Below are positions 199-24,288 of a stretch of 33,482 bases of DNA, piece by piece. The stretch lies in assembly GCA_043798045.1 (NCBI GenBank), contig JAZDPD010000112.1:1-33482 (forward strand), read 5' to 3'. The first letter of the stretch is position 1. Each line of letters opens with the position of its first letter. Source of the DNA: Candidatus Omnitrophota bacterium. GTDB taxonomy: Bacteria; Omnitrophota; Gorgyraeia; Zapsychrales; Fredricksoniimonadaceae. A program made the position numbers and the translations under genes. Below the pieces are notes generated by a model. That model did no database searches. It was not told the origin of the DNA and was given only the letters and a program-made list of their open reading frames with translations.

Positions 199-225
199 TC
201 TGATGGGCTGGAATTGAGGATGCGG

Positions 226-4574: not shown

Positions 4575-5609
4575 ATGAACGCGGGGGACAAAAAAATGGT
4601 TAGAAATGTGTGCAGTCGGTGTGTTTTGCCTGAAAGCAAGCCGCATCTATGGCTTGATGCCGGGGGTGTTTGTAATATATGTCATGCGCATGATGAGCAA
4701 AAGCGTGCGGCAGCGCCGGTTAAGTTTCTGGAAAGCGATTTCATCAAGATATTGAATCAGCATAAGAGCCGGGGAAAGTATGATTGCCTGATCATGTGCA
4801 GCGGCGGGAAAGACAGTACAGCCGCGCTTTATTATATGAAAAAACGCTATAAACTTAATCCGCTGGCGTTTACGTTTGATCACGGCTTTGAAACCGAAGA
4901 GGCGTTGACCAATATTCGCCAGGCGGTTGAAATCCTGGACGTTGATTTTATGCTTTTCAAGTCTGATTTCATGAAAGACATGTTTGCTGATATTGTCAGG
5001 GGTGATGAAAAGGCGGTGCTGTGCCACCCGTGTTCGATCTGGTACATGGGGCTTACGTTTGAAATGGCGGCCCGGTTTGATATACCCATTATTGTGGCGG
5101 GATGGACACGCGGACAGGCCGCACATCAGCCGCTTGTGCCGCATTGTTCCAATGATGCTTGTCAGCCGGAATTCGCTGCCATGTCCAAAGCAACGCAGGA
5201 ATTTCTCGACAGATACACGAAACAGAACTCCAAGTATAAGGGGTTTGCCTGCAGCATGGAAGAGGTTGTTCGTGCCGCCGGCAGGCGCCATAAAGCGGTG
5301 GTTGTATCGCCGCACTGGTTCTTGCCGACAGATGCGGGTTCTTATGTCCAGATGCTTCAAAAAGAATTGAAGTGGAAATACCCAACACAGAGTTATCCGG
5401 CCAAGTCCACGAACTGTTCCCTGAATTTTCTTTCTGTCCAGCAATCGATGAAGCACTTTGGCTATACGCATTATCATGTGGAAATGAGCAAAATGATCCG
5501 GGAGTCTCTTTTGTCACGTGAGGAAGCCCTGAGGCTGCTGGAGATAAATTTTGATGAAGGGGTTATTAAAGAAGTGATGGCCAGGTTGGCGGTGGGCGGA
5601 AAGGGGTAG
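4575..5609 (+). CDS. N-acetyl sugar amidotransferase (PP-loop ATPase, WbuX/PseA-like)
   Basis: N-terminal zinc-ribbon-like CSRCVLPES...GGVCNICH, followed by the PP-loop motif YDCLIMCSGGKDSTAALYY (SGGxDS). ATG 4596 is an alternative start. Confidence 0.75.
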   Translation: MNAGDKKMVRNVCSRCVLPESKPHLWLDAGGVCNICHAHDEQKRAAAPVKFLESDFIKILNQHKSRGKYDCLIMCSGGKDSTAALYYMKKRYKLNPLAFTFDHGFETEEALTNIRQAVEILDVDFMLFKSDFMKDMFADIVRGDEKAVLCHPCSIWYMGLTFEMAARFDIPIIVAGWTRGQAAHQPLVPHCSNDACQPEFAAMSKATQEFLDRYTKQNSKYKGFACSMEEVVRAAGRRHKAVVVSPHWFLPTDAGSYVQMLQKELKWKYPTQSYPAKSTNCSLNFLSVQQSMKHFGYTHYHVEMSKMIRESLLSREEALRLLEINFDEGVIKEVMARLAVGGKG

Positions 5610-10338: not shown

Positions 10339-11757
10339 ATGAGAACATTATTTTCTCAAAAGGTTGCACTGGTGTTTTTTGGTTTGGTTTTGAGTCTTTT
10401 TGTTCTGGAGGCGGGATTGCGTCTGGCCAGTTTTGGGTTGGCGGCCTGGCATGAATATCAGGTTAATGCTGCGCTTAAAGTAAAGGCGGATATCAGGATT
10501 TTATGTTTGGGGGAATCAACGACCAGGGAGCAGTATCCGCGTTATCTGCAGGAATATTTGAGAAATAGTCAGGGCATCAAGTTTACGGTTATTGATGAGG
10601 GCATCTCCGGTACAAATTCTAATATTATTGTGTCTTTGCTGGGCAAGAATATTGATAAATATAAACCGGATTTTGTGGTTACCATGATCGGAGTTAATGA
10701 TTACGGGGGGCATATGCCGTATACGGCTGCCTCGATGACGGGGGTGGAGCGGTTTCTGGATGTTTTTAAAACATATAAATTAATGCGACTGGTTTGGATG
10801 CATGTTACGACCAGGATTAAAGATGACCGTATGTCTTTGAGGCACAGAGAAGGCATTTTTCCTGGCGAATATAGCAAGGAGGTGACGGATGATGCGTTGG
10901 GGCCGGATCATCGGGATGACACTAATCAGCCGCAGCAAGTTCGCGGGCCTGATGTGTTACGGAAAACTTCGAAGGATCACATATATGTCCGTCTGGGTGA
11001 TGTTTTAAGAGACAGGGGGGATTATTTCGGGGCAGAGAAAATGTTCAGGAAGGCTATTGAGATTAATCCTCGCAATGATCTGGCCTATACAAAGTTGGGA
11101 TGGTTGTATTGGCTGCATGCTGTGGATAAGAGATTTCCTAATGGGGTTGTTGATTCGAGAAAAGCATTTGAGCGGTCCCTGGAAATTAATCCTGAGCAAA
11201 GTGGCGTTTGGATGGTTTTGGCAGGTGTGTATATGCATCAGGATGAATACGTATTAGCCGAGGCGGCGTATAAGAAATACCTTAAAATGTCTCATCGCGA
11301 AGATTCTGCGTTTGAGATGTTAGGTGTGTTTTACTTCAGGCGTGGAGACAAGGTTAAGGCAGAGGAAACTTTTAAGCGGGCGTTTGAGCTCTATCCAGAT
11401 AATGTGCGCGCTTGTTCCCGGTTGGCCAATTTGTATTGTGAAATGGGCAGGGATGATTTGTGCCAGGAGTATACTCGGAAAATGAAGGCTTTGCCCAAGA
11501 GTGGGTATGCGTCAATGACACTGAGAAATTATCAGAAGATCAAGAAAATCCTTTCGGAAAAAAAGATTGGCTGGATTTGTGTGCAATATCCTACGTTGAG
11601 CGTTGCCTTGTTAAAAGAGGTTGTTGGCGCGGGTGAGGGAATTGTTTTTGTTGATATGATGGGTGGTACCTGGGGGCATTGTCAGGATGCGGGCAACAGA
11701 TTGCTTGCAGGGAATATTGCCGATGCCATCAAGGAGAAGCTGGGGATTCGGCCGTAG
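10339..11757 (+). CDS. membrane-anchored SGNH-like hydrolase with TPR insert (family A, copy 2)
   Basis: N-terminal hydrophobic anchor with LEAGLR. SGNH-like blocks: ILCLGESTT (I), DEGISGTNSN (II), MIGVNDYG (III) and VDMMGGTWGHC (V-like). TPR-like repeats lie between blocks III and V (AIEINPRNDLAY..., LEINPEQSGVW..., FELYPDNVRAC...). Confidence 0.75.
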   Translation: MRTLFSQKVALVFFGLVLSLFVLEAGLRLASFGLAAWHEYQVNAALKVKADIRILCLGESTTREQYPRYLQEYLRNSQGIKFTVIDEGISGTNSNIIVSLLGKNIDKYKPDFVVTMIGVNDYGGHMPYTAASMTGVERFLDVFKTYKLMRLVWMHVTTRIKDDRMSLRHREGIFPGEYSKEVTDDALGPDHRDDTNQPQQVRGPDVLRKTSKDHIYVRLGDVLRDRGDYFGAEKMFRKAIEINPRNDLAYTKLGWLYWLHAVDKRFPNGVVDSRKAFERSLEINPEQSGVWMVLAGVYMHQDEYVLAEAAYKKYLKMSHREDSAFEMLGVFYFRRGDKVKAEETFKRAFELYPDNVRACSRLANLYCEMGRDDLCQEYTRKMKALPKSGYASMTLRNYQKIKKILSEKKIGWICVQYPTLSVALLKEVVGAGEGIVFVDMMGGTWGHCQDAGNRLLAGNIADAIKEKLGIRP

Positions 11758-11799: not shown

Positions 11800-12585
11800 A
11801 TGTGGGGAGGATTGTTAGGTTCAACGTCTGGTTTTTCGCAGCGGGCTGTGCTGTGGAGTTTGGTCAACAAGAATATCAAGGCGCAGTATGCGGGTTCTGT
11901 TTTGGGTTTATTGTGGGCATTTATTAATCCATTGTTATTGGCACTCATCGTGGGTTTTGTGTTTACCAATATCCTGAATGTTACTGTGTCTAATTTTTAT
12001 ATATACATCATATCCGGAATGTTGCCCTGGGGCTTCTTCTCGGTGTCTTTGCTGGAGGCTTCGTTATCTATTCCCAGGCATGCCAGCTTCCTGAAACAGT
12101 TTCCCTTGTCCAAAAGCTTTATTCCGGCGGCAGCGGTTTTGTCGAATTTTATTTTGCTGCTGTTCAGTCTGATGATTTTGTTGCCGCTGTTTATCCTGGT
12201 TTCTCCCAAGATCGTTTTTATGTTGCCCGTGCTCGTCATGGCCTTGGTTTTGTTTTTATTGTTCACGTTCGGGATATCATTAATAACGTCAGTCATGTGT
12301 GTTGAATGGCAGGATATGCGGCAAGTGTTGAATATGCTGATGATGTACTGGTTGTGGCTGACGCCGGTATTTTATAGTGTGGATATGGTTCCTTCCAAAT
12401 ATAAAATTCTTTTGTTGTGCAATCCGGTTAACGTTTATTTGAGCTTGTTCAGAAATGCGTTGTTTGATGGAAAAATGCCCACACCCTGGGCCTGGGGGGT
12501 GGCTGTCGTTTTGGCGCTGATAATGACGGCCGGAGGGCTTTTCCTGTTTAGCAAAAGGGAAGGGGGTTTTTTAAAGAAAATATGA
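11800..12585 (+). CDS. wzm: ABC-2 type polysaccharide export permease (Wzm/TagG/KpsM-like)
   Basis: LVNKNIKAQYAGSVLGLLWAFINPLL is the characteristic ABC-2 permease N-terminal motif. Multiple hydrophobic helices follow. The gene lies directly upstream of, and overlaps by ATGA, an ABC ATPase. Confidence 0.85.
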   Translation: MWGGLLGSTSGFSQRAVLWSLVNKNIKAQYAGSVLGLLWAFINPLLLALIVGFVFTNILNVTVSNFYIYIISGMLPWGFFSVSLLEASLSIPRHASFLKQFPLSKSFIPAAAVLSNFILLLFSLMILLPLFILVSPKIVFMLPVLVMALVLFLLFTFGISLITSVMCVEWQDMRQVLNMLMMYWLWLTPVFYSVDMVPSKYKILLLCNPVNVYLSLFRNALFDGKMPTPWAWGVAVVLALIMTAGGLFLFSKREGGFLKKI

Positions 12586-13799
12586 ATATGGAAGAAGACC
12601 TTGCCATTGAATTAAGGGATGTGAGTGAGACGTATGAAATAGAAATAAAGACCGATGAAAAAACGGTGCGCGAGGAAACCGAGGTTTTAAAGAATATTTC
12701 ATTGAAGGTTAAAAAGGGCGAGTCCATTGCGATCCTTGGGGCCAATGGTGCCGGCAAATCGACGATTCTAAGAGTTATCGCCGGACTTTTGAAACCGGAT
12801 AAAGGGGATGTTTGTGTGCGGGGGGTTGTTGGCAGCCTTCTGGATCTTGGGGCAGGCTTTCACCCGGAGTTGACCGGGAGGGAGAATCTTCGGCTAAATG
12901 CCGGTTTTTATAATTTCAATCGGAGTGAGTTTGAGGCCAGGTATGAGGAAATCCTGAAATTTGCTGATATTGGCAAATTCATTGATGTGCCGGTGCGGTG
13001 TTATTCCCAGGGCATGTATGTGCGTCTGGCCTTTAGCCTGGCCATTCATGTGAATCCCGACATCCTTTTGATCGATGACTGCCTTTCGGTGGGGGATGAT
13101 AATTTTCAGTTAAAGTGCATTGATAAGGCGCTTGAATTGAAAATGAAGAATAAAACCATTGTCCTGGTTACGCATAATTTTACATTGGCCAAACAGCTCT
13201 GCCAGCGTGGTATCTATATCCGCGACCAGGGGATTGCCCTGGATGCGACGGTTGATCAGGCGGTCTCGACATATTTGACGGTTTCCAAGATGGTTAAGGA
13301 TCAGTATCAGTATTTAAAAGCGCGTATTCAGGAAATTGAAGATTATGAAAAAACAGAGGCTGATTCCTGGCAGCGGAAAATAGACTTGCAACGTCAGACG
13401 GAACAGCTGCAGTGGGATCAGGAGGCTGGCCGCCGTCGTGAGGCTGATGACCGGCGATGGGAAGAGGAGACGCTTGCCCGGCGTCAGAAAGAAGAATTGC
13501 AATGGGATCAGGAGTTTGCCAGGGTGCGTGCACAGGAAGAGGTGCAGTGGCTGCAGGAGGTAAAGCGCCGGCGTGATGCGGAAGGGTTGGCGTGGGCGGT
13601 TGAGGTTGGGCAAAGGCGTGATGCGGATGATGCTGCATGGGAAAAAGCGGCGCAGGAGCGCCGTGCCAAGCAGGAACGTGACTGGGCGGATTCGTTTATG
13701 AAAAGGTGTGCCGATGAACAGGCGCGATGGGAGAAAGAAATGAACGGGAGGCGTGAGGTGGAAAAATCGGTTAAAGCTAACGAGAAGGGGGCGGCATGA
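12582..13799 (+). CDS. wzt: polysaccharide export ABC transporter ATP-binding protein (Wzt/TagH-like) with a non-canonical Trp-periodic charged C-terminal extension
   Basis: Walker A GANGAGKST, signature-like YSQGMYVRLAFS, Walker B ILLIDDCLSVGD, and an H-loop region LVTHN. Residues from about 250 to 405 form an Arg/Glu/Gln/Trp-rich repeat instead of a recognisable carbohydrate-binding domain. Confidence 0.9.
   Translation: MNMEEDLAIELRDVSETYEIEIKTDEKTVREETEVLKNISLKVKKGESIAILGANGAGKSTILRVIAGLLKPDKGDVCVRGVVGSLLDLGAGFHPELTGRENLRLNAGFYNFNRSEFEARYEEILKFADIGKFIDVPVRCYSQGMYVRLAFSLAIHVNPDILLIDDCLSVGDDNFQLKCIDKALELKMKNKTIVLVTHNFTLAKQLCQRGIYIRDQGIALDATVDQAVSTYLTVSKMVKDQYQYLKARIQEIEDYEKTEADSWQRKIDLQRQTEQLQWDQEAGRRREADDRRWEEETLARRQKEELQWDQEFARVRAQEEVQWLQEVKRRRDAEGLAWAVEVGQRRDADDAAWEKAAQERRAKQERDWADSFMKRCADEQARWEKEMNGRREVEKSVKANEKGAA
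13368..13772 (+). repeat. nine tandem 15-residue (45-nt) units, each beginning with Trp, in the Wzt C-terminal tail
   Basis: TGG codons occur at 13368 and then every 45 nt, ending at 13728 (both end codons checked in frame). The units are WQRKIDLQRQTEQLQ / WDQEAGRRREADDRR / WEEETLARRQKEELQ / WDQEFARVRAQEEVQ / WLQEVKRRRDAEGLA / WAVEVGQRRDADDAA / WEKAAQERRAKQERD / WADSFMKRCADEQAR / WEKEMNGRREVEKSV. Confidence 0.85.
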
Positions 13800-14095
13800 G
13801 GACATCATCATTATTAAAGAATGCGGCACATGTGGTTTTATTACTGGGCATTGTTGCCGCCATGCAGAAATTTTCTGTTGATTCGCTGATGTTTTGGGTT
13901 GTTATTGTCGTGGCGGGTGTTTTATGGCTGGTGTTAAGGTTGCTGGCCATTATAGGACAGCTTGTATATGAAATGCGCAATGATTCGGCCCGTGTTTTGA
14001 GCCAGGTCGAACGTTCGCTGTATCAGATCAATGCTTCCATGCAGGAAGTGCGGGATTTGATGGATTCCAATATAACCACGAAGGATGTGGCATGA
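13796..14095 (+). CDS. small membrane protein (two hydrophobic helices plus a polar helical tail), function unknown
   Basis: ATGA overlaps occur at both ends: with the Wzt stop at 13796-13799 and with the rSAM start at 14092-14095. Hydrophobic segments are AAHVVLLLGIVAAM and FWVVIVVAGVLWLVLRLLAIIG. No family was recognised. Confidence 0.55.
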   Translation: MRTSSLLKNAAHVVLLLGIVAAMQKFSVDSLMFWVVIVVAGVLWLVLRLLAIIGQLVYEMRNDSARVLSQVERSLYQINASMQEVRDLMDSNITTKDVA

Positions 14096-16920
14096 AGGTT
14101 TTTATAATAAATCTGCCGTGGGAAAAGGGTGGATTATGGGGTGTGCGCGCCGGCTCTCGATGGCCGCATATCAAGACGTCTCTGGAAAGGCATTACTCTC
14201 CGTTCCCATTCTTTATGGCGTATGCCGCGGCTCTTTTGAAACGGGAGGGCGTTGAGGTTTGTCTCATTGATTCTTTGGCTGAACAGATCACACTGGATAA
14301 TCTTTTGTCAATGATAGATGCGGGTAAGCCGGATCTTGTGGTGGCGGAAACATCTTCGCCGTCATTATTGAATGATTTGATGATCCTCAACAAGCTTCCT
14401 GCAAAGTTGCCGGTGGCGTTATGTGGTCCTGAAGTTAGTATCCGGGATTTGCATTTTCTTAAGGAGCGTCCGCGCATCACTTATGTGTTTGTGGGGGAAT
14501 ATGAGTTTACTCTTTTGGAATTGGTGCAGTGCTTGAAGGCGGGGCAGGATTTGTCGGGCGTTAAAGGGTTGATCTATCGGGCTCAGGGCCAATGCGTGAC
14601 CAACCCCCCTCGTCCTCTTTTGGAAAACCTGGATGATTTGCCCTGGCCTTTGCGTGACGGGCTTCCCATGGAAAAATACAATGATACGCCCGGGGGGATC
14701 CCATTTCCGAGTGTGCAGATGTGGTCTTCGCGCGGGTGTCCGTATCATTGTTTGTTTTGCAGCTGGCCGCAATTGATGTACCAGAGTCATCGGTACAGAA
14801 CACGCAGCGTGACTGATGTTGTTGATGAGATGGAGTATCTTGTGAATGTGAAGGGGTTTAAGTCTGTATATTTTGATGATGATACCATGAATGTTGGCAA
14901 GCAGCGGATGATGGCGTTGGCAGACGAGATCAAGCGCAGATGTTTGAATGTGCCCTGGGCGATGATGGCGCGGGCGGATTTGATGGAGGAGGATGTGCTT
15001 GAAAACCTGTGTTCCGCCGGATTGGCAGCCGTGAAATACGGGGTTGAGTCGGGTGATCAGCGGCTTGTTGATAACATTAACAAGAAGCTTGATCTGCAGA
15101 AGCTGGAACGGATGGTCCGGTTTACGCAATCTATAGGCATTAAAACACATTTGACGTTTACCTTCGGGCTGCCGGGTGAAACGCACGAAACGATCCAGAA
15201 GACAATTGACTTTGCCAGGCATCTTGATCCAGACACGCTGCAGTTTTCCATTACAACGGCTTTTCCCGGAACACAGTATTACAGGGAGCTTGAAACAAGG
15301 GGGCATATTGTTTCGCGGGATTTACAAGATTATGACGGGAATTCCAGATCCATGCTGCGGACAGCGTGTTTGAGCGCCAAGGAGTTGCAGAGGGCCAAGC
15401 AGGATGCGGACTGGCTTTGGCAGGAACATGTATGGGCAACACGCAAGCACGTTAAGTTGGATGCGGGTTTTCGTGAACGATGTGTGATGTTCGGGAAGAA
15501 AAATGTGTTGCGGCCATTGGTCTTGATGTGGCGATCTTTAATTCGGTATTGTTTGTTGATGGGCCGGAGATTGTGTTCACCGAATCTTAGCATGCAAGTC
15601 AAGGAGCCTGATCTTAGCCTGATTTTTCTCGCCCGGGAATGTTTTTTGAGGATGGGAAGGTGTGTATTAAGGTGGGGCCATGAAACGCTGGCCAGGGTAT
15701 GTGCCCTCAGGCACTGGTATGAGCCTCAGCGGGTATGGTTGAAAAAACTGAAGAATAATGTATTGAACCTGATGGGTGTGCATCATGGGGCTTATGCGTT
15801 TAAAGGCCCGGATTGTGTGCAGATTGATTTGACGAGTAATTGTAATAATAATTGCGTCAGTTGTTGGTGTAATTCCCCGCTCTTAAAAACAAGAATGTAT
15901 AAAGGGGCCAAGAGGTACAAGACCTTGCCGACGCCCATGGTTCTTGCCTTGATGGAGGATCTTGTTGGACTTGGGACCAGCGAGTTGTATTTTTCTGGCG
16001 GCGGCGAGCCGTTCATGCACCCCGATCTTATGACGATCGTGGCGCAGGCCAAGGCCAGGGGGCTGCACTGCTGCATCAATACCAATTTCACGCTTGTGGA
16101 TGAGGCGGTTATTAAACAGCTCATTGATCTTTCGGTGGATGCGTTGACCGTGAGTTTCTGGGCGGCGAATCCGGAGTCCTATGTGCGTACGCATCCTAAT
16201 AAGGATGCCGCCACGTTTGAGCGGATGACACAGATGCTGCGGCTTTTAAATACAGCCAAAGACGGCAGAAAACCGTACATCAAGATTTACAATGTGATTT
16301 CCAACCTGAATTATACAGAGCTTGAAGAGATGGTGGCTTTTGCGGAAGAAACCGGTTCTGAATCCGTGGAGTTCGCGGTGGTGGATACGATTCCCGGCGC
16401 TACGGATCAGCTGTTGCTCAATTATGAACAACGTCAAGCGGTATTGGCGCAGTGTTCGCGGATAATGGCGGCGGCGCATAAGGTGAAGGTGCTTAATCTG
16501 GATACCTTGATACGGCGGTTTTCCGATGTGAGTGCCCAGGAAGCACAATATGACAGCGGGATATTCCAGGAATCATCCTGTTATGTGGGGTGGGTTTTTA
16601 GCCGTATCATGTCCAATGGGGATGTGAATTTCTGCTTGAAAGCTCATCGCATGCCTGTAGGGAATTTGTATGAACATTCTTTCCGCGCTATATGGAATTC
16701 GGCCAAACAGCAGGAATTTCGCGGAAAGGCTTTAAAATTTGATAAGGACGACAGCTTTTTCAAGGCTATCGGTAATGATGAGAATTGTAAAATGGGTTGT
16801 TATAAAAGCTGTGATGATATTGGCAGGAATATGGTGGTGCAGGAGAAAATGAAGCGCCTGTCTTCTGTGCAGAAGACATTGTTGACAATAATGGCCAAAG
16901 TTATGGGGCGCAGGGTTTAA
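14092..16920 (+). CDS. dual radical SAM protein: N-terminal B12-binding-domain radical SAM fused to a C-terminal SPASM/twitch-like radical SAM
   Basis: The N-terminal half begins MKVFIINLPW...GVRAGSRWPH, a class B rSAM style start. Core 1 is SSRGCPYHCLFCSWP (14737-14760). The linker is basic and hydrophobic (about 15440-15770). Core 2 is DLTSNCNNNCVSCWC (15841-15864), followed by YFSGGGEPFMHPD. A C-terminal Cys cluster (16579-16812) contains C-x17-C with NGDVNFC (G-x4-C) and CKMGCYKSC. Confidence 0.88.
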   Translation: MKVFIINLPWEKGGLWGVRAGSRWPHIKTSLERHYSPFPFFMAYAAALLKREGVEVCLIDSLAEQITLDNLLSMIDAGKPDLVVAETSSPSLLNDLMILNKLPAKLPVALCGPEVSIRDLHFLKERPRITYVFVGEYEFTLLELVQCLKAGQDLSGVKGLIYRAQGQCVTNPPRPLLENLDDLPWPLRDGLPMEKYNDTPGGIPFPSVQMWSSRGCPYHCLFCSWPQLMYQSHRYRTRSVTDVVDEMEYLVNVKGFKSVYFDDDTMNVGKQRMMALADEIKRRCLNVPWAMMARADLMEEDVLENLCSAGLAAVKYGVESGDQRLVDNINKKLDLQKLERMVRFTQSIGIKTHLTFTFGLPGETHETIQKTIDFARHLDPDTLQFSITTAFPGTQYYRELETRGHIVSRDLQDYDGNSRSMLRTACLSAKELQRAKQDADWLWQEHVWATRKHVKLDAGFRERCVMFGKKNVLRPLVLMWRSLIRYCLLMGRRLCSPNLSMQVKEPDLSLIFLARECFLRMGRCVLRWGHETLARVCALRHWYEPQRVWLKKLKNNVLNLMGVHHGAYAFKGPDCVQIDLTSNCNNNCVSCWCNSPLLKTRMYKGAKRYKTLPTPMVLALMEDLVGLGTSELYFSGGGEPFMHPDLMTIVAQAKARGLHCCINTNFTLVDEAVIKQLIDLSVDALTVSFWAANPESYVRTHPNKDAATFERMTQMLRLLNTAKDGRKPYIKIYNVISNLNYTELEEMVAFAEETGSESVEFAVVDTIPGATDQLLLNYEQRQAVLAQCSRIMAAAHKVKVLNLDTLIRRFSDVSAQEAQYDSGIFQESSCYVGWVFSRIMSNGDVNFCLKAHRMPVGNLYEHSFRAIWNSAKQQEFRGKALKFDKDDSFFKAIGNDENCKMGCYKSCDDIGRNMVVQEKMKRLSSVQKTLLTIMAKVMGRRV

Positions 16921-16921
16921 C

Positions 16922-16929
16922 GGGGGGGG
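16922..16929 (+). repeat. G8 homopolymer tract within the ribosome-binding region of the 16936 radical SAM gene
   Basis: taacGGGGGGGGtgggatATG; the tract ends 6 nt before ATG 16936. Confidence 0.9.
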
Positions 16930-16935
16930 TGGGAT

Positions 16936-18729
16936 ATGTGGGGTGGGATAATTTCATATTTTGCTTCTTGGCTGGTGAAGCACTTGCAACGGCAGATGGC
17001 GTTGACGTGGATCCTGATCAAGGCTGTCCGTGCGAAGGCGATGTCCCGTGATGTGATCTTTCGTTGTTATGGCCAGCATGCGTATTTGCACATTCTTTCA
17101 TCGCAAAAGAATGATTTTGAATTATTTGTTCTGGCCATCGAGATCAACAAAATGGTCGGCAACAAGATCGGGTTTGTCATTAAGATCGACAGGGTCAATT
17201 TTTGTTACTTGGAAGAAGTGCTCAATTTTTGCCTTGGTGCTATCGGCGCGAAGTTGATGAATGTCAAGAGGCCCGACGCGGATGAGGCGAAGAGTTTGTT
17301 TGAGCGGTATGAAGGCCTTGTGGCAGGGTTGAACAAGGAGCTGTTGCCGCTCAAGGTGAGTTTCATTTTTGATGATAAAGACCGGCCTGTCTTGAAGCGG
17401 GTGTTGGATTCATTTGAAAACATAGGAAAGAAGTCGCCCGAGTTCGTGAATGACCTTTCTGCAGTGTTTCATCTTTTGGATGCCATCAAAGAGCAGAGGC
17501 ATTCCGCACCGACCACAAACCGGTATTTCAGCTTGTTGTCTGAAGAGCTTATCCTGGGCCCGCGGCAGGTGGTTTTGGACCTGTATCATAAATGCAATAC
17601 AGATTGTGTTCATTGCTGGATCCACAGTCCGACAGCCCGGAAGGTGCTGACCAAGGAGTTTGCTTCTCAGATGATGGATTATGATGTCGTCAAGAAGATC
17701 ATTGATGATTGTTTCAGCCTGGGCGTTGATACCATCACGCTTTTGGGGGATGGTGAGCCGATCCTGCACCCTGATTTTGTCCGCATCGTTAAATATATCA
17801 AGAAAAAGAATCCCTATATGGATGCGTTGACTTTTTCCAATGGCTTGGCATTGACGCCCAGGGTTAGTCAGGAGCTTGTTAAATCCGGGCTCAATGAGAT
17901 TTGGTTCAGTGTCCCGGCCGCCAGCCCCGAGGTTTATCAAAAGATATGCCCTTCCAAGAAGGCGAGGGATTTTGAACGCATAAAAAAGAATATTCACTAT
18001 TTATGCCGTTTGAAGAATAAGGTCAGGGATCTGGTGCAAAAGTTTGACCTTTCAGAAAAGAATGCGATCATTGCGCGAGGCGCCAGGGTAAAAACGTTTC
18101 CGATGCATTGTGTCATCACGTTTGTTTTGCATAATCTCAATTATCATGAAATCCTGGACATGGCCAATATGGCGGTTGAGCTGGGTGTGGACGAGATGCG
18201 TTTTCAACTGATACATTTGGACAGGGATAACAAATGGCTTCAATTGGATCAGGCGCAGGTTGATTTCCTGAACAGCAAGCTGCAGGAGGTGAGGGCTGTT
18301 GCTGAAAAGGGCCGTGTGATGCTGGGCCTGGCACTGGAGTTTCAGCTTTCGCATATGCATGCGCCCACAGGTGACTGGAGCCGGGGATACTATTTACAGC
18401 ATGGATGTCCTATCGGCTTTTTCTTTTCCATCATCAAGGCTAATGGCGATGTAGGTTTGTGCTGCAGCCTGAAGGTTGTTGATAACGTTCATAACAAAAG
18501 TTTTAAGGAGATATGGCTATCGCAGCGTTACCATCAGGCCAGGGTGGGGGCCAAACATCTTCGGGATAATAAAGATCAGCTTTTCCAGTCAACCACATAC
18601 CATAAGAATGAGGCAAGGGGGGATTATCTGTATTCGGAAAGGTGTGAGCTTTGTGATAATCATGATATGAACAATGAGGTGATCCAGTGCTTGTCCCGCA
18701 TCAAGCTGGCAGATCCGTTTATGAAGTAA
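16936..18729 (+). CDS. radical SAM protein with SPASM/twitch-like C-terminal Cys motifs and an uncharacterised ~200-aa N-terminal domain (paralog 1)
   Basis: CxxxCxxC motif YHKCNTDCVHCW (17593-17616, first Cys is residue 220). LLGDGEPILHPD forms the SAM-binding GGE-like strand. C-terminal motifs are GCPIGFFFSIIKANGDVGLCC (G-x4-C) and ERCELCDNHD (18406-18654). It is homologous to the C-terminal half of the 14092 protein and to the 25599 protein. Confidence 0.85.
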   Translation: MWGGIISYFASWLVKHLQRQMALTWILIKAVRAKAMSRDVIFRCYGQHAYLHILSSQKNDFELFVLAIEINKMVGNKIGFVIKIDRVNFCYLEEVLNFCLGAIGAKLMNVKRPDADEAKSLFERYEGLVAGLNKELLPLKVSFIFDDKDRPVLKRVLDSFENIGKKSPEFVNDLSAVFHLLDAIKEQRHSAPTTNRYFSLLSEELILGPRQVVLDLYHKCNTDCVHCWIHSPTARKVLTKEFASQMMDYDVVKKIIDDCFSLGVDTITLLGDGEPILHPDFVRIVKYIKKKNPYMDALTFSNGLALTPRVSQELVKSGLNEIWFSVPAASPEVYQKICPSKKARDFERIKKNIHYLCRLKNKVRDLVQKFDLSEKNAIIARGARVKTFPMHCVITFVLHNLNYHEILDMANMAVELGVDEMRFQLIHLDRDNKWLQLDQAQVDFLNSKLQEVRAVAEKGRVMLGLALEFQLSHMHAPTGDWSRGYYLQHGCPIGFFFSIIKANGDVGLCCSLKVVDNVHNKSFKEIWLSQRYHQARVGAKHLRDNKDQLFQSTTYHKNEARGDYLYSERCELCDNHDMNNEVIQCLSRIKLADPFMK

Positions 18730-18833
18730 AGGGATGGTGTATTGCCGCCTGAGGGATGTCGCACATTGTGTGTTTCAAGAAATAATGGTATGTCCGTGTC
18801 GGGACAGGGTTGTGTCGATTGGAAAGGAAGAGG

Positions 18834-20162
18834 ATGGTCCTTAAGCGCATGAACCGGATTTTTGTATTCTTCATTGGCATCATCATGGCGCTGTTGTTTT
18901 TGGAAACAGGGTTAAGGGTTGGAAGCCTTGTTTATATGTGGCGCCAAGACTCCCTGTCTTCTTCCGTTGCCACGGGTCAGGGGCAAAAATATGTCGTCTT
19001 GTGTTTGGGGAATTCATATACCAAGGGCGACGGGGCCCCGTTGTCCATGAGCTATCCGGCCCAGTTGCAAATTATTTTTGATGAAAAGATGCCTCAACGA
19101 AATATTAAGGTTATTAACAAGGGGCGGGGCGGGCAGAATACATCAGAACTGCTGGATGATTTGATTGTTAATCTTGAAAAATTCAAACCAGATCTTGTTG
19201 TTCTTCAGACGGGGCAGGCTAACCTGTGGAATTACTTACAGTATACGAAATATTTAGGAAAAAATGACAAGCACATGACGTTGTTGCGGCGATGGGCGTA
19301 TTTTGGGAGCGAATGTTTGCATGCCAGCCGAGTTTACAGGCTGTGGTTGTTGTTGGGCGAAAACTTGAAACAAATGAAAGATGGGGACGGCGGGGTTTTA
19401 ACAGAAAATGCTGATGGGTACCGGATTAGTCGTGCATATTTGGAAGCGGTGGATTTTATCAGAGAGATGAACACCGCTTTTTCTAACAGGGTGCCGGTTG
19501 TTCTGGATGAGGCCAGGGTGGCACAGGTGTTGTCTGTGTTGATGGGCGCGATTAAAACAGATCCGGGATATTCGGATAATTATGTACTTGTCGGGCATAT
19601 CTATCGTTTTCAGGAGAAGTATGAAGAAGCGCTGCGGTGGTTTATGGCGTCAGTAGATGTTGATATCAGGGGGCGTCGCGGGGAAGATCTTCATCGTGGG
19701 TATCGTGAAATACGGAATATGCGCAAAATGGACAAAGGGCCGGGACAGGAGCGGCTTAACAGGAAGATAGATGATTATATCAGGCAGTTTAATGCGGTGC
19801 ATCCTGAGGCAGCCGTTAACCTGTATATTTTAAGTGACGCGCAGATTGAGCAGTGGGTTGAGGCCGATATAAATGAGATGGTCCGGATCATCCGGGGGCA
19901 TGGGGCTGCTTTGATCCTGCAGGATTATCCCATTGATACCCCCTCGAATGAAATCCTGAAAAGAATTGCCGAAGAATGGCATGTGCCGCTTGTGAATAAC
20001 AGGGAGGTTTTTCAGGAAAAAATGAAAGCCGGCATGGTTTTTAAGGATTTGTATAGTGTCGATGGTCATTGCAATGCCAGGGGTTATGGTGTGATGGCGG
20101 AAAATGTATATAACAAGATTGTTGAAACGGTTTTTGATCCCTCAAGATTGGCAATCGAATAA
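18834..20162 (+). CDS. membrane-anchored SGNH-like hydrolase with helical/TPR-like insert (family B, copy 1)
   Basis: The track start is TTG 18810. ATG 18834 follows AAGGAAG, and ATG 18849 would match the paralog N-termini (MNRIFVFF...LLFLETGLR). Blocks: VVLCLGNSYTKG (I), NKGRGGQNT (II), LQTGQANLWN (III) and SVDGHCNARGYGVMAEN (V-like). A TPR-like segment reads DPGYSDNYVLVGHIYRFQEKYEEALRWF. Confidence 0.75.
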   Translation: MVLKRMNRIFVFFIGIIMALLFLETGLRVGSLVYMWRQDSLSSSVATGQGQKYVVLCLGNSYTKGDGAPLSMSYPAQLQIIFDEKMPQRNIKVINKGRGGQNTSELLDDLIVNLEKFKPDLVVLQTGQANLWNYLQYTKYLGKNDKHMTLLRRWAYFGSECLHASRVYRLWLLLGENLKQMKDGDGGVLTENADGYRISRAYLEAVDFIREMNTAFSNRVPVVLDEARVAQVLSVLMGAIKTDPGYSDNYVLVGHIYRFQEKYEEALRWFMASVDVDIRGRRGEDLHRGYREIRNMRKMDKGPGQERLNRKIDDYIRQFNAVHPEAAVNLYILSDAQIEQWVEADINEMVRIIRGHGAALILQDYPIDTPSNEILKRIAEEWHVPLVNNREVFQEKMKAGMVFKDLYSVDGHCNARGYGVMAENVYNKIVETVFDPSRLAIE

Positions 20163-21604: not shown

Positions 21605-21656
21605 TGTCGGTTTGTTCTATTTTGTTGTGGCGAGCAACGGGAGCCCGGATTGCTGC

Positions 21657-22946
21657 ATGAAAAAATGTCTTGTTTTTTTAACGGGGATCATGGCGGCCCT
21701 GCTTTTTTTGGAGGCAGGCCTTAGCATCGGCGGGTATGGTTATCGCCTAAAATCCGTTGTATGGTCAGATGGGGCTGCACTTGGGCCGCGAGGGGATTTT
21801 GTTGTTTTATGTTTGGGGAATTCGTATACCAAAGGTGTCGGGGCAAGGCCGGGAATGGGGTATCCTGAGCAGTTGCAGCGTTTGCTGGATACGCGCTTGC
21901 CTGATCGGCACATGCGTGTGATTAACAAAGGCAAGGAGATTCAGAATACGGCGGAGTTGCTGGTTGATCTGAGGCCTTTATTGGAACGTATCAGGCCGGA
22001 TTTGATTATTCTTCAGACGGGACAGCCTAATGCCTGGAATTTTATGGGGCATATGAATTATTTAAGAAGAAATGAGAAGGTCGGGTCGCGTTGGCAGCAG
22101 GCCGTGGACTATCTTAAAGATTGTTTGTATGCCAGCCATGTTTATAGATTTGTTGTGTTGCTTCGGGAGAATATCAGGCAGAAAAATGAGAAGATCGTGG
22201 ATGGGGGTATTCCGGGAGGGCTTGATCCTCAAAGCAGCCCGGCGTATGTGAATGCAGAGGAATTTATCCGGGTTTCTTATGATGCCCTGTTTCGCATGGA
22301 GCCGGTTGTTATGGATGAAAAGAAAATCCGGGAAGTTAGTTTGGTTTTTATGGACGCACTCAAGAAAGATCCGTCGAATCCGTATCATTATGTGTATATG
22401 GGGGATGTTTGCCGGTTTCAGAACAGGTTTGAGGAAGCGTCGATGTGGTATATGAAATCGTTGAGTGTTGATGCCAGGACGTCGGGGGCACGGCATTTTC
22501 AGGGGGGATGGTACAGGCTTCGAGATTTGAGTAAAATGGGCAAGGGACCTCATGATGAGGCGATTAACCGGAAGATGGATGTTTTTATCAAACGGTTTGA
22601 TCGGGATTATCCGCAGCAGGCATTGAATTTCCTGTTTTTGAATGACCGTGAAATCAAAGAGTGGATGGCATCAGAAATGAACGAAATTGTCAGGATTATT
22701 CAGCAGATGAAAATTCGTTTGGTGTTGCAGAACTATCCGGTTGATACGCCGGCGAATTCGATCATGGAGGCCGTGGCCGTAAAGAAACGAATACCGTTCA
22801 TTGACAACAAGGCTGTTTTTGACGAGAAGCTGCGTTCGGGGATGCCGCGTGAAGCACTGTTTGTTCCAGATGGCCATTGTAATGAGGCCGGTTATGCGGT
22901 GATGGCGGAAAATGTTTATAGGAAAATCGTGGAAGAAAAGTTTTAG
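21657..22946 (+). CDS. membrane-anchored SGNH-like hydrolase with helical/TPR-like insert (family B, copy 2)
   Basis: The track start is TTG 21612. ATG 21657 gives MKKCLVFLTGIMAALLFLEAGL, matching the paralog N-termini. Blocks: VVLCLGNSYTKG, NKGKEIQNT, LQTGQPNAWN, VPDGHCNEAGYAVMAEN. Confidence 0.75.
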   Translation: MKKCLVFLTGIMAALLFLEAGLSIGGYGYRLKSVVWSDGAALGPRGDFVVLCLGNSYTKGVGARPGMGYPEQLQRLLDTRLPDRHMRVINKGKEIQNTAELLVDLRPLLERIRPDLIILQTGQPNAWNFMGHMNYLRRNEKVGSRWQQAVDYLKDCLYASHVYRFVVLLRENIRQKNEKIVDGGIPGGLDPQSSPAYVNAEEFIRVSYDALFRMEPVVMDEKKIREVSLVFMDALKKDPSNPYHYVYMGDVCRFQNRFEEASMWYMKSLSVDARTSGARHFQGGWYRLRDLSKMGKGPHDEAINRKMDVFIKRFDRDYPQQALNFLFLNDREIKEWMASEMNEIVRIIQQMKIRLVLQNYPVDTPANSIMEAVAVKKRIPFIDNKAVFDEKLRSGMPREALFVPDGHCNEAGYAVMAENVYRKIVEEKF

Positions 22947-24241: not shown

Positions 24242-24288
24242 GTTTAAACGTGTGGGTATGGATTGTTAATGGCGGCTGAGGGTTGTTA

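What the first reader, a model, noticed from the sequence alone, without database searches (positions are those of the whole stretch)
13368..13772. Wzt ATPase ends in a tail with Trp at exactly every 15th residue, nine times (pentadecad repeat)
After the nucleotide-binding domain, the Wzt protein has about 135 residues made almost entirely of Arg, Glu, Gln, Asp, Ala and Trp. Trp occupies positions i, i+15, and so on to i+120 without a single slip (TGG at 13368 through 13728 in 45-nt steps). There is also a 30-residue super-period (LQWDQE recurs). Well-studied Wzt proteins (E. coli O9a, Raoultella terrigena/Klebsiella pneumoniae O12 O-antigen system) instead carry a C-terminal beta-sandwich that binds the capped glycan terminus. 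Fifteen-residue periodicity (15/4 = 3.75 residues per turn) is the signature of right-handed coiled coils such as the YadA stalk. It would line all the Trp residues along one stripe of a long helix. If fully helical, at ~1.5 Angstrom per residue, the tail would span on the order of 20 nm. I infer a stalk, a ruler (compare the coiled-coil ruler of WbdD), or a carbohydrate-stacking Trp ladder that recruits the downstream tailoring enzymes.
Basis: partly seen in the sequence, partly recalled or inferred. Interest (0 to 1): 0.7.

Follow-up and report, generated by a model that had tools for sequence, protein, structure and literature searches.

The report
Tryptophan-periodic helical tail on Wzt ATPase
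A sugar-polymer export ATPase from an uncultured bacterium (probably Omnitrophota) ends in a long, charged helix with one tryptophan exactly every 15 residues. The tail is real, conserved and extremely rare, and it is an expanded version of the spacer that in sister proteins carries a large C-terminal domain, but its function is still only inferred.

Summary
ORF 12582..13799 (405 aa) is a Wzt/TagH-family ABC ATPase. All nine of its Trp lie at aa 263 to 383 in exact 15-residue steps (chance about 1.6e-11).

The repeat unit is R-x-x-[ED]-[ED]-x-x-W-x-x-E-φ-x-[RQK]-R. There is no DNA-level tandem repeat. An Omnitrophota ortholog (P0002, 69% identity) has the same repeats one-to-one, and the tail is under purifying selection, so this is not an assembly artefact.

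AlphaFold2 predicts helix 243-333 (pLDDT about 83-96), a low-confidence break at 336-348, then helix 349-404. Opposite charges at i→i+4 are enriched (z 4.4). Ortholog conservation sits on one helical face that contains W (moment 0.71-0.73, null 0.27).

An exhaustive search of 1.84 billion representative proteins found only two relatives. One, P0121, is the positional ortholog. There a shorter F/F/W/W version of the repeat is the linker between the NBD and a roughly 420-aa all-β C-terminal region. Across the clade this linker varies from about 10 to about 200 aa.

The tail is therefore an expanded interdomain helical stalk that has lost its distal domain. I rate it a new variant of a known kind, of moderate interest.

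The parts
11800..12585 (+). Wzm-like ABC-2 permease; its stop overlaps the Wzt start codon
   Evidence: PF01061 ABC2_membrane, E 5.9e-13. Weak NCBIfam match to galactan Wzm/RfbD, below cutoff.
12582..13799 (+). Complete Wzt/TagH-family ATPase gene (405 aa)
   Evidence: ORF list and translation. Best solved relatives are A. aeolicus Wzt at 39-40% identity, then TarH/TagH.
12582..13301 (+). Nucleotide-binding domain (aa 1-240)
   Evidence: PF00005 at aa 36-168. PDB sequence and fold matches cover aa 27-246 only. AF2 pLDDT is mostly 86-98.
13062..13097 (+). Walker B motif ILLIDDCLSVGD, with Asp (D166) in place of the catalytic Glu
   Evidence: Motif scan. 23 of 121 relatives have DD and 98 have DE. 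Glu167 is the residue mutated to block hydrolysis in A. aeolicus Wzt (PMC6379404).
13308..13580 (+). Predicted helix 1 of the tail (aa 243-333, about 13.6 nm)
   Evidence: AF2 DSSP helix H243-333. pLDDT is 75 for block 241-250, 90-96 for 251-320 and 83 for 321-330.
13347..13751 (+). Nine 15-residue repeats (aa 256-390), consensus R-x-x-[ED]-[ED]-x-x-W-x-x-E-φ-x-[RQK]-R. The TGG codons are at 13368 + 45n.
   Evidence: column table and autocorrelation; per-column ortholog conservation.
13581..13625 (+). Predicted break or hinge (aa 334-348, EGLAWAVEVGQRRDA, with G335 and G343). This is the repeat best conserved between orthologs (13/15).
   Evidence: AF2 shows no helix at 334-348, and pLDDT is below 50 at 336-348. 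The linker of the long-form ortholog P0121 ends at the aligned position.
13626..13793 (+). Predicted helix 2 of the tail (aa 349-404, about 8.4 nm). It holds three more W repeats that have no counterpart in the P0121 linker.
   Evidence: AF2 helix H349-404, pLDDT 79-92. Alignment.
13796..14095 (+). Conserved 99-aa protein with hydrophobic (predicted membrane-spanning) segments, overlapping the Wzt stop codon (ATGA). It is part of the conserved cassette but is not specific to the tail.
   Evidence: 64% identical to L001 5345-5641. A 95-98-aa ORF sits at the same place in L128 and L132. No Pfam match above the curated cutoff and no NCBIfam match.
14092..16920 (+). 942-aa B12-binding / radical SAM / SPASM enzyme, the conserved downstream neighbour
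   Evidence: Pfam. Orthologous 906-910-aa genes are in L128 and L132.

Best explanation
The tail is a long, highly charged alpha-helical stalk on the cytoplasmic ATPase of a Wzm/Wzt-type glycan exporter. It is built from nine diverged 15-residue repeats.

**Origin.** It comes from the helical linker that, in the sister proteins of this Omnitrophota-type Wzt subfamily, joins the nucleotide-binding domain to a large all-beta C-terminal region. Here and in one ortholog the distal region has been deleted cleanly. The linker has been kept and lengthened.

**How the helix is held (inferred from sequence).** R(i)→E(i+4) and E(i)→R(i+4) salt bridges on either side of each Trp stabilise it, together with a W(i)-hydrophobic(i+4) pair. 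It therefore resembles a salt-bridged single alpha-helix (SAH) more than a hydrophobic coiled coil.

**The conserved face.** Positions R1, E4/5, W8, E11/φ12 and R15 form one stripe at about 3.75 residues per turn. This is the only face conserved between orthologs, so it is most likely a contact surface.

**Inferred function, not shown.** The stripe zips helix to helix. The pairing could be helix 2 folding back on helix 1 around the conserved Gly-containing hinge at 334-348. It could also be the two tails of the Wzt dimer. In an antiparallel arrangement W would face φ and Arg would face Glu. The result would be a rigid keel or docking platform under the NBD dimer, taking the place of the dimeric C-terminal domain.
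For: **Real and selected**
- Exact W spacing.
- Orthologous repeats in P0002, with tail pN 0.23 against a saturated pS of 0.74.
- No DNA tandem repeat.

**Helical**
- AF2 helices 243-333 and 349-404, mostly pLDDT 79-96.
- No Pro and only 5 Gly in 162 residues; 69% helix formers.

**Salt-bridged**
- Opposite-charge pairs at i+4 number 32 against 17.6 +/- 3.3, z 4.4.
- Base→acid pairs at i+4 number 20 against 8.9 +/- 2.3.
- Around each W: E/D at -4 in 8 of 9 repeats, E at +3 in 6 of 9, a mostly hydrophobic residue at +4 (I/A/T/F/V/V/A/F/M), and R at +/-7 and +/-8.

**One-sided conservation**
- Columns 1, 4, 5, 8, 9, 11, 12 and 15 are 0.71-1.0 identical. Columns 2, 3, 6, 7, 10 and 14 are 0.38-0.5.
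- The helical conservation moment is 0.71-0.73, against a null of 0.27 (95th percentile 0.50).

**Linker origin**
- Exhaustive phmmer of the tail found only P0002 and P0121.
- P0121 sits in the same cassette: GT4, amine oxidase, Wzm, Wzt, 98-aa ORF, 910-aa rSAM, 597-aa rSAM.
- Its F279/F293/W308/W323 linker aligns to the window repeats. It is predicted as helix 243-346 followed by beta strands 350-766.
- Clade members have charged linkers of about 10 to 200 aa before the same beta module.

**Clean loss of the distal domain**
- The beta module is not encoded elsewhere in the window or in L001.
- The next gene overlaps the stop codon.
Against: - No oligomer or hairpin model could be computed. 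The helix-helix pairing and the keel or platform function are inference only.
- The AF2 break at 336-348 is low-confidence and could be a continuous helix.
- In A. aeolicus Wzt the two NBD C-termini are 40-48 Å apart (PMC6379404). An in-register parallel pairing cannot begin right at the NBD.
- The dominant salt-bridge orientation here is base→acid. From my own recollection of the SAH literature, acid→base (E(i)→K/R(i+4)) is the more usual orientation in SAH domains; I did not check this against a paper.
- AF2 often gives confident single helices for segments that are really coiled coils or conditionally folded.
- No partner protein is specific to the tail-only loci.
Confidence: 0.55

Rival explanations
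1. The two tails of the Wzt dimer form a parallel right-handed (15/4) pentadecad coiled coil. The W residues stack pairwise along the core, giving a stalk or ruler of about 20 nm.
For: - Exact 15-residue period.
- The positions conserved between orthologs are a, d, e, h, l and o of a pentadecad.
- Other clade linkers show a 7.5 periodicity (P0004) and possibly a heptad one; the 3.5/7.05 peaks of P0010 are below its shuffle threshold.
- Wzt works as a dimer (PMC6379404).
Against: - Only two of the core positions are hydrophobic. Position a is Arg and d/e are Glu/Asp, which would face like charges in an in-register parallel dimer.
- Non-Ala hydrophobic content is 19%.
- The 3.75 harmonic is not above the comb background or above shuffles.
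- The NBD C-termini are 40-48 Å apart.
- AF2 predicts a break at 336-348.
- There is no distal domain for a ruler to position.
Confidence: 0.2
2. The tail is a glycan-binding Trp/Arg ladder. Each W stacks on a sugar ring, and the neighbouring RR cluster binds an anionic group of successive repeat units of the lipid-linked polymer. One 15-residue repeat spans 22.5 Å, roughly 4-5 pyranoses. On this view the helix replaces the cap-binding domain as a substrate recruiter or length sensor.
For: - W and R are typical carbohydrate-contacting residues (own knowledge).
- The tail occupies the place of the C-terminal substrate-recruiting domain of other Wzt proteins (PMC6379404).
- One conserved face carries W and R.
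Against: - No sequence or fold similarity to any carbohydrate-binding module.
- 26% of the residues are acidic and the net charge is -5, which disfavours anionic glycans.
- W rotates 60 degrees per repeat on a straight helix.
- The long-form ortholog uses F as well as W in the same positions. That fits packing better than sugar stacking.
Confidence: 0.1
3. The tail is a functionally neutral remnant or a flexible, largely disordered charged region. It was left behind when the C-terminal domain was deleted, and its periodicity is inherited from the ancestral repeat expansion.
For: - The distal domain is clearly lost.
- Linker length is highly variable in the clade.
- The tail evolves faster than the NBD: 62% against 75% identity, pN 0.23 against 0.15.
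Against: - All seven W of the P0002 tail align with window W. The only aligned difference is window W383, which is Leu in P0002.
- Repeats have stayed one-to-one although synonymous sites are saturated.
- Conservation is face-specific.
- The tail is longer than the ancestral-type linker: nine repeats against four.
- The AF2 helix is confident.
Confidence: 0.1
4. The repeat array is an assembly or frameshift artefact.
For: A related gene (P0003) does have a near-identical 45-nt DNA repeat on which its contig breaks.
Against: - The window has no DNA-level repeat.
- The frame is open and ends in an ATGA overlap with a conserved downstream gene.
- An independent MAG has the orthologous array.
Confidence: 0.02

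Closest known systems
Wzt of the Aquifex aeolicus WzmWzt O-antigen ABC transporter (PDB 6AMX, 6M96, 7K2T, 8DKU)
   Same: - The NBD is 39-40% identical, TM-score 0.82-0.87 normalised to the NBD-only chains.
- It is paired with an ABC-2 Wzm permease.
- It carries a C-terminal extension after the NBD.
   Different: - The A. aeolicus extension is a jelly-roll carbohydrate-binding domain that dimerises and recognises the glycan cap (PMC6379404). Here it is a helical repeat of about 160 aa with no Wzt_C match.
- The catalytic Glu is replaced by Asp.
Long-form Omnitrophota/Planctomycetes-type Wzt proteins (P0121, P0004-P0010; unnamed subfamily)
   Same: - Same NBD subfamily with Walker B 'DD'.
- P0121 and P0008, the two loci looked up, share the gene cassette with the window.
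- A charged helical segment starts at the same YxYLxAKI junction. The P0121 linker is homologous to the window tail and has aromatic residues at 14/15/15 spacing.
   Different: They continue into an all-beta region of about 400 aa. In P0121 it is predicted as two modules. It has no Pfam or PDB match and no detectable similarity to Wzt_C. The window protein and P0002 stop after the helix, and the helix is longer, with strict W periodicity.
Single alpha-helix (SAH, ER/K) domains, for example in myosins, INCENP and CAF-1 KER
   Same: - Rich in E and R, stabilised by salt bridges, and used as semi-rigid linkers or spacers between domains, also in prokaryotes (PMC5347031 and PMC5378345 abstracts).
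- Opposite charges at i+4 are enriched.
- There is no hydrophobic seam.
   Different: - E+R+K make up only about 39% of the repeat region (with D about 49%). From my own recollection SAH domains are richer in E/R/K; I did not check a figure in a paper.
- Q, A and D are abundant.
- One invariant Trp and one hydrophobic residue occur per 15 residues, on a conserved face.
- The base→acid orientation predominates.
- The monomeric state is untested.
Pentadecad (15/4) right-handed coiled coils such as the YadA stalk segment (own knowledge)
   Same: 15-residue period. Conserved positions coincide with a, d, e, h and l.
   Different: Core positions a, d and e are charged and not hydrophobic or Asn. 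The 3.75 harmonic is not enhanced. The protein is cytoplasmic and not a trimeric autotransporter. The oligomeric state is unknown.
Coiled-coil molecular rulers of O-antigen chain terminators (WbdD of E. coli O9a; WbbB)
   Same: A long helical spacer in an ABC-transporter-dependent glycan pathway. WbdD regulates chain length (PMC3482155 abstract). The ruler role of its coiled coil is own knowledge. In this clade the linker length varies 20-fold between conserved flanking domains.
   Different: The helix is on the transporter ATPase and not on a terminating enzyme. In the window protein nothing is attached to its far end.

Membership tests
Wzt/TagH-family polysaccharide-export ABC ATPase | ABC_tran nucleotide-binding domain with Walker A and ABC signature motifs | tested here: met
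   PF00005, E 3.2e-22. GANGAGKST and YSQGM are present in the sequence.
Wzt/TagH-family polysaccharide-export ABC ATPase | Closest solved relatives are Wzt/TarH/TagH and not other ABC classes | tested here: met
   By sequence: A. aeolicus Wzt E 1.4e-51, TarH 4.8e-48, TagH 8e-44, mycobacterial Wzt 1.8e-37. Foldseek gives the same order.
Wzt/TagH-family polysaccharide-export ABC ATPase | Adjacent ABC-2 (Wzm/TagG-type) permease gene within a glycan-synthesis cluster | tested here: met
   Wzm at 11800..12585 overlaps the Wzt start. GT4, GT2, GT1, epimerases and a carbamoyltransferase are in the window.
Wzt/TagH-family polysaccharide-export ABC ATPase | Catalytic glutamate immediately after the Walker B aspartate | tested here: not met
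   The motif is ILLIDDCLSVGD, with Asp at the Glu position. 22 other clade members share this (23 of 121 in all), and 98 other relatives have Glu. Glu167 is the catalytic residue in AaWzt.
Wzt/TagH-family polysaccharide-export ABC ATPase | Reaches a curated NCBIfam equivalog cutoff (TagH, or galactan Wzt/RfbE) | tested here: not met
   Best scores are 172, 156 and 155 bits, against cutoffs of 538, 320 and 400. The protein belongs to the family at superfamily level only.
Wzt with C-terminal carbohydrate-binding domain (Wzt_C, PF14524) | Beta-sandwich Wzt_C domain after the NBD | tested here: not met
   No PF14524 hit on the window protein. AF2 predicts only helix after aa 243.
Single alpha-helix (SAH / ER/K) domain | Dense i→i+4 (and i+3) opposite-charge pairs along a long predicted helix | tested here: met
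   32 pairs at i+4 against 17.6 +/- 3.3. AF2 helices of 91 and 56 residues.
Single alpha-helix (SAH / ER/K) domain | Composition dominated by E, R and K, with no conserved hydrophobic positions | tested here: not met
   E+R+K are about 39%. W8 is invariant and position 12 is usually hydrophobic (V/A/F/I/M in 15 of 16 repeats).
Single alpha-helix (SAH / ER/K) domain | Monomeric, stable helix in solution | not testable with these tools
   Needs CD plus AUC or SEC-MALS of the purified tail.
Pentadecad right-handed coiled coil | 15-residue sequence period | tested here: met
Pentadecad right-handed coiled coil | Hydrophobic (or Asn) occupancy of core positions a, d/e, h and l, giving a dominant 3.75-residue hydrophobic periodicity | tested here: not met
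   a is R (14/16), d/e are E/D, h is W and l is V/A/F. The 3.75 peak is 3.0-5.0, at or below the mean shuffle maximum of about 5.3, and no higher than the other comb harmonics.
Pentadecad right-handed coiled coil | Oligomeric helix bundle | not testable with these tools
   Only monomer AF2 was available, and coordinates were not returned.
Coiled-coil molecular ruler (WbdD/WbbB type) | The helical spacer separates two functional modules whose distance sets product length | tested here: not met
   The window protein ends after the helix, and no distal module is encoded nearby. In long-form relatives the spacer does separate the NBD from a beta region, and its length varies. Any effect on chain length is not testable here.

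The most novel reading that the evidence does not exclude
The Trp/Arg stripe is a new kind of periodic recognition surface on a transporter ATPase. One option is a charge-and-Trp 'zipper' that forms a previously undescribed W-cored helix pair or bundle with half-ionic core layers. Another is a helical reader that engages successive repeat units of the undecaprenyl-linked glycan every 22.5 Å, so that the exporter itself measures or recruits its polymer without a globular cap-binding domain. More broadly, the 'DD' Wzt clade, with helical spacers of 10 to 200 aa and novel beta modules, would be a transporter-borne ruler system.
Probability: 0.12. Interest if true: 0.8.

Novelty: new variant of a known kind. 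Interest (0 to 1): 0.5.

Why it matters
ABC-transporter-dependent glycan export is understood from a few proteobacterial and Aquifex models. In those, the Wzt C-terminus is either absent or a cap-binding beta-sandwich.

This locus shows a subfamily found here mainly in Omnitrophota MAGs, and one Planctomycetes MAG, with three differences:
- the NBD carries a variable-length charged helical spacer;
- it usually ends in uncharacterised beta modules;
- it has Asp in place of the catalytic Glu.

The window protein is an extreme derivative that keeps only the spacer, with an exact Trp period and a single conserved face. If the stripe mediates tail-tail or tail-partner contacts, it would be a new way to hold together or regulate a homodimeric ABC ATPase. 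It would also be a natural example of a Trp-periodic, half-ionic helix interface of interest to protein designers. Variation in spacer length across the clade also offers a testable link between transporter architecture and polymer length.

Tried and rejected
- **Tail-only word-indexed search:** 82 candidates, none significant.
- **Same search with the P0003 repeat:** no candidates.
- **The search for related loci with the tail in the 185,579 species-representative genomes of the genome-contig collection:** no relative.
- **Composition-free scan for TGG(N42) x7 in genome contigs:** six hits. All are closed frames or non-coding DNA repeats when translated in the TGG frame. No species-representative genome there encodes seven or more W in exact 15-residue steps.
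- **Same scan x6 in metagenome contigs:** It was dominated by 5-aa-period WNGME/WSGVE repeats that look like (GGAAT)n-type satellite DNA (probably human) and by other DNA tandem repeats. None was E/R-rich, so the scan was uninformative and incomplete.
- **Identity of the long-form C-terminal beta module:** Foldseek of the whole P0121 model returned only NBD matches. There were no Pfam hits even at E<=10 and no PDB sequence hit. hhalign against a Wzt_C alignment gave 0.7% probability. It stays uncharacterised.
- **Foldseek of the window model:** only the NBD aligned, and nothing matched the tail.
- **TPR docking idea:** I considered that the neighbouring TPR/SGNH proteins dock on the tail. I set it aside because they begin with a signal-anchor-like hydrophobic segment, which from sequence reading probably places them in the periplasm, and because TPR genes are absent from the long-form loci L128 and L132. 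That reading of topology is inference only.
- **Membrane-binding amphipathic helix:** set aside because of the 26% acidic content and net charge of -5.
- **Literature searches:** searches for Wzt with coiled coil, pentadecad with tryptophan, and 15-residue repeat with tryptophan found no description of such a tail.
Full report
**1. Observation**

The ORF at 12582..13799 (+) encodes 405 aa. Its only nine Trp are at aa 263, 278, and so on to 383.

Nine residues falling in an arithmetic progression in a 150-aa stretch has a chance of about 1.6e-11. The period belongs to the whole unit, not only to W. With W masked, mean BLOSUM similarity at lag 15 is 0.88 against a shuffled mean of -0.09 +/- 0.19. 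Lags 30 and 45 are no higher than lag 15, so the proposed 30-residue super-period is not supported.

The consensus from 16 repeats (window plus ortholog) is R1-x-x-[ED]4-[ED]5-x-x-W8-x-x-E11-φ12-x-[RQK]14-R15. The repeat region is about 75% E/R/A/Q/D/W, with a net charge of -5.

**2. Real, or an artefact?**

- Tandem Repeats Finder sees no DNA repeat in 13200-13850. The periodicity is held at the protein level only.
- The closest relative, P0002 (380 aa, Candidatus Omnitrophota MAG, 69% identity), has seven W in the same register. Its repeats align one-to-one with those of the window.
- Synonymous sites between the two genes are saturated (pS 0.74-0.82). Non-synonymous divergence is 0.23 in the tail and 0.15 in the NBD. 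The tail is under purifying selection.
- The ORF ends in an ATGA overlap with a 99-aa gene that is conserved in related loci.
- An assembly artefact is effectively excluded, short of read mapping.

**3. The protein and its neighbourhood**

Residues 36-168 match PF00005, and nothing in Pfam matches the tail. The best solved relatives are A. aeolicus Wzt (39-40% identity), TarH, TagH and mycobacterial Wzt. All of these alignments stop by about aa 246. NCBIfam equivalogs are matched only below cutoff.

The gene is translationally coupled to an ABC-2 permease at 11800..12585. It lies in a glycan cluster containing:
- a GT4 phosphoglycosyl transferase;
- GT2 and GT1 enzymes, epimerases and a carbamoyltransferase;
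- TPR and SGNH/GDSL proteins;
- several B12-binding/radical-SAM/SPASM enzymes.

'Wzt' is therefore a fair family-level label, with one notable deviation. The residue after the Walker B Asp is Asp and not the catalytic Glu (ILLIDDCLSVGD). Among the 121 relatives retrieved, 23 share this, and 98 have Glu.

**4. How rare is the tail?**

- An exhaustive phmmer of the tail against 1.84 billion representative proteins found two proteins only: P0002 (E 9e-37) and P0121 (E 1.9e-4).
- Word-indexed searches and a scan of 185,579 species-representative genomes found nothing more.
- A similarity-free scan for seven TGG at 45-nt spacing in those genomes gave six hits, none an open reading frame.
It was swamped by short-period DNA repeats that look like satellite DNA.
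- A third Omnitrophota protein, P0003, has a different 15-residue unit, LEQEAWRHAQEERNR, repeated at least four times after the NBD. There it is a young 45-nt DNA repeat (87% matches) on which the contig ends.
- E at -4 and R at +7 relative to W are shared by the window, P0121 and P0003 units (and direct reading).

**5. Origin**

P0121 (767 aa) is the positional ortholog. Its locus has GT4, amine oxidase, Wzm, Wzt, a 98-aa ORF, a 910-aa rSAM and a 597-aa rSAM. This matches the window's Wzm, Wzt, 99-aa ORF, 942-aa rSAM and 597-aa rSAM. The P0008 locus has the same core cassette.

In P0121 the NBD is followed by a charged segment of about 100 aa with F279, F293, W308 and W323 at 14/15/15 spacing. 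This segment aligns to the window repeats (39% identity over 100 aa). AF2 predicts it as one helix (243-346), followed by beta strands to the C-terminus in two modules.

The retrieved clade members P0004-P0010 have the same junction motif. After it comes a charged linker of very different length, and then the same beta module. The linker is about 10 aa in P0006, about 30-50 aa in P0005, P0007, P0008 and P0009, about 75 aa in P0004 and about 200 aa in P0010.

The beta module has no Pfam match, no PDB sequence match and no detectable similarity to Wzt_C. It is not encoded anywhere else in the window or in the 15 kb around P0002.

The window tail is therefore the clade's interdomain linker, kept and extended from four to nine repeats after a clean loss of the distal region. 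The formal alternative is that the short form is ancestral and the long form gained the module. The window's P0121-homologous part ends at about aa 345, which is where AF2 places a break.

**6. Structure**

AF2 with a 35-sequence alignment gives mean pLDDT 87:
- helix 243-333 (pLDDT 90-96 over 251-320);
- a low-confidence break at 336-348 (GLAWAVEVGQRRD, with G335 and G343);
- helix 349-404 (pLDDT 79-92).

There is no Pro in the tail. Opposite charges are strongly enriched at i+4 (32 against 17.6 +/- 3.3), mainly in the base→acid orientation (20 against 8.9 +/- 2.3).

Each W has E/D at -4, usually E at +3, a mostly hydrophobic residue at +4, and Arg at +/-7 and +/-8. This is a roughly palindromic RR..EE..W..Eφ..RR unit in which nearly every conserved residue has an i+/-4 partner.

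Hydrophobic periodicity shows only the harmonics of a 15-residue comb. The 3.75 harmonic is not singled out and is not above shuffles. Non-Ala hydrophobic content is 19%. On an ideal helix the W would rotate by 60 degrees per repeat. These features fit a salt-bridged helix resembling SAH domains better than a classical hydrophobic coiled coil (PMC5347031 and PMC5378345 abstracts).

**7. A conserved face**

I compared the eight orthologous repeats of the window and P0002 column by column:
- Columns 1, 4, 5, 8, 9, 11, 12 and 15 are 71-100% identical.
- Columns 2, 3, 6, 7, 10 and 14 are 38-50% identical.

Projected on a helix, this gives a conservation moment of 0.71-0.73, against 0.27 expected (95th percentile 0.50). 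The conserved face is the one that carries W. This is independent evidence that the segment is helical and that one stripe (R, E, W, φ, R) is a contact surface.

The most conserved repeats are the central ones, aa 316-360 (12, 13 and 11 of 15 identical). They include the predicted hinge.

**8. Mechanism**

*Shown:*
- a conserved, selected, helical, salt-bridged 15-residue repeat with one conserved face;
- homology to the clade's interdomain linker;
- absence of the distal module.

*Inferred:*
- The stripe mediates helix-helix contact.
- An antiparallel pairing would put W opposite φ and Arg opposite Glu. It could be helix 2 folded back on helix 1 about the 334-348 hinge, or two tails.
- An in-register parallel pairing would put like charges together. 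It would also have to bridge the 40-48 Å between NBD C-termini reported for A. aeolicus Wzt (PMC6379404).
- The functional reading is a rigid keel or docking platform beneath the NBD dimer. It would replace the dimeric C-terminal domain that other Wzt proteins use to recruit substrate.

I give 0.55 to this package. About 0.8 applies to 'helical stalk derived from the linker' and much less to the specific pairing and function.

**9. Rivals**

- Parallel pentadecad coiled coil or ruler: 0.2
- Glycan-reading Trp/Arg ladder: 0.1
- Neutral or disordered remnant: 0.1
- Artefact: 0.02

Evidence for and against each is listed in the rival section.

**10. Comparison with known systems, and novelty**

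The NBD and permease place the system in the Wzm/Wzt (TagGH) family. The tail is not Wzt_C, not a canonical SAH, not a canonical pentadecad coiled coil, and not a WbdD-type ruler (see the membership tests).

No paper found in three literature searches describes a Wzt with such a tail or a W-x14 helical repeat. I classify it as a new variant of a known kind: a Wzt subfamily with a variable helical spacer, of which this is a tail-only, Trp-periodic extreme.

Interest is moderate at 0.5. The feature is verified, very rare, and shows clear selection on one face. Its function is unknown, and the organisms are uncultured.

Noticed in passing
window 13062-13097 (Wzt aa 161-172): The Walker B motif reads ILLIDDCLSVGD, so the catalytic Glu is replaced by Asp. 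Of the 121 relatives retrieved, 23 share 'DD', including every one with a long charged linker and/or the uncharacterised beta C-terminal module. The other 98 have 'DE', and many of those carry Wzt_C. A homodimeric ABC ATPase with both catalytic bases changed may be a slow or regulated enzyme.
   Followed up: partly
window 13796-14095 (+); L001 5345-5641; L128 12315-12611; L132 10082-10369: A 95-99-aa protein follows Wzt in every locus examined. It has hydrophobic (predicted membrane-spanning) segments and a C-terminal amphipathic helix. It is 64% identical between the window and L001, has no Pfam match above the curated cutoff and no NCBIfam match. It may be an unrecognised transporter accessory subunit.
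   Followed up: partly
window 214-2497 and 11800-18729; L128; L132: A conserved core cassette recurs across the clade: GT4 phosphoglycosyl transferase, FAD amine-oxidase-like protein, Wzm, Wzt, small ORF, roughly 910-940-aa B12/radical-SAM/SPASM enzyme, and a second rSAM. In the window about 9 kb of extra genes is inserted between the oxidase and Wzm (GT2, two epimerases, a carbamoyltransferase, TPR proteins).
   Followed up: partly
window 10339-11757, 18810-20162, 21612-22946, 22955-24241, 24283-25602: Five paralogous proteins of about 430-470 aa have an N-terminal hydrophobic anchor (read directly only in the first) and an SGNH/GDSL (NonGDSL-like) domain. The first also carries TPR repeats. 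That is an unusual number of putative glycan acyl-modifying enzymes in one cluster.
   Followed up: no
window 4575-5609 and 30359-31963: Two sizeable ORFs (344 aa and 534 aa) in the cluster have no Pfam match at E<=1e-5.
   Followed up: no
L001 2640-5300: In the ortholog locus of P0002 no Wzm permease gene lies directly upstream of Wzt. Only 97 nt separate it from the TPR-SGNH gene. The permease must be encoded elsewhere or is missing.
   Followed up: no
L131 4514-4705: The P0003 tail is a 45-nt DNA tandem repeat (4.3 copies, 87% matches) encoding LEQEAWRHAQEERNR, and the contig ends inside it. This is an independent, recent expansion of a different 15-residue Trp unit on the same kind of ATPase. 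Its C-terminus is unknown.
   Followed up: partly
P0004 aa 250-322; P0010 aa 248-440: Other clade linkers are also short-period repeats. P0004 alternates 7- and 8-residue EEE(R/K)x(R/K)φ units, so it again has a 15-residue super-unit (hydrophobic period 7.55). P0010 has a linker of about 200 aa with peaks at 3.5 and 7.05 (heptad-like, but below its shuffle threshold).
   Followed up: partly
P0121 aa 350-766 (L128 10001-12304): The C-terminal region of the long-form Wzt proteins is predicted as two tandem all-beta modules with a GLGxYTSL...WYDSxQAxW motif. There is no Pfam or PDB sequence match, and hhalign gives 0.7% probability against Wzt_C. This appears to be an undescribed domain family sitting where the cap-binding domain normally is.
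   Followed up: partly
window 13294-13829 (- strand): Two long antisense ORFs (114 aa and 171 aa) overlap the tail. They are Pro/Leu/His-rich and are most likely a by-product of the purine-rich GAR/CGN/CAG codon usage of the repeat, not genes.
   Followed up: no
L008, L019, L021, L022, L027 and many other metagenome loci: Many metagenome contigs consist of 5-aa-period WNGME/WSGVE translations, which look like (GGAAT)n-type satellite DNA. They probably reflect human contamination in public metagenome assemblies.
   Followed up: no
L006 7426-7701: A Metamycoplasmataceae MAG contig carries a 45-nt tandem repeat that translates to VSTLRWC*VSRCSYS units. If the in-frame stops are TGA, which genetic code 4 reads as Trp (the codon identity was not checked), this could be a genuine 15-residue repeat protein.
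   Followed up: no
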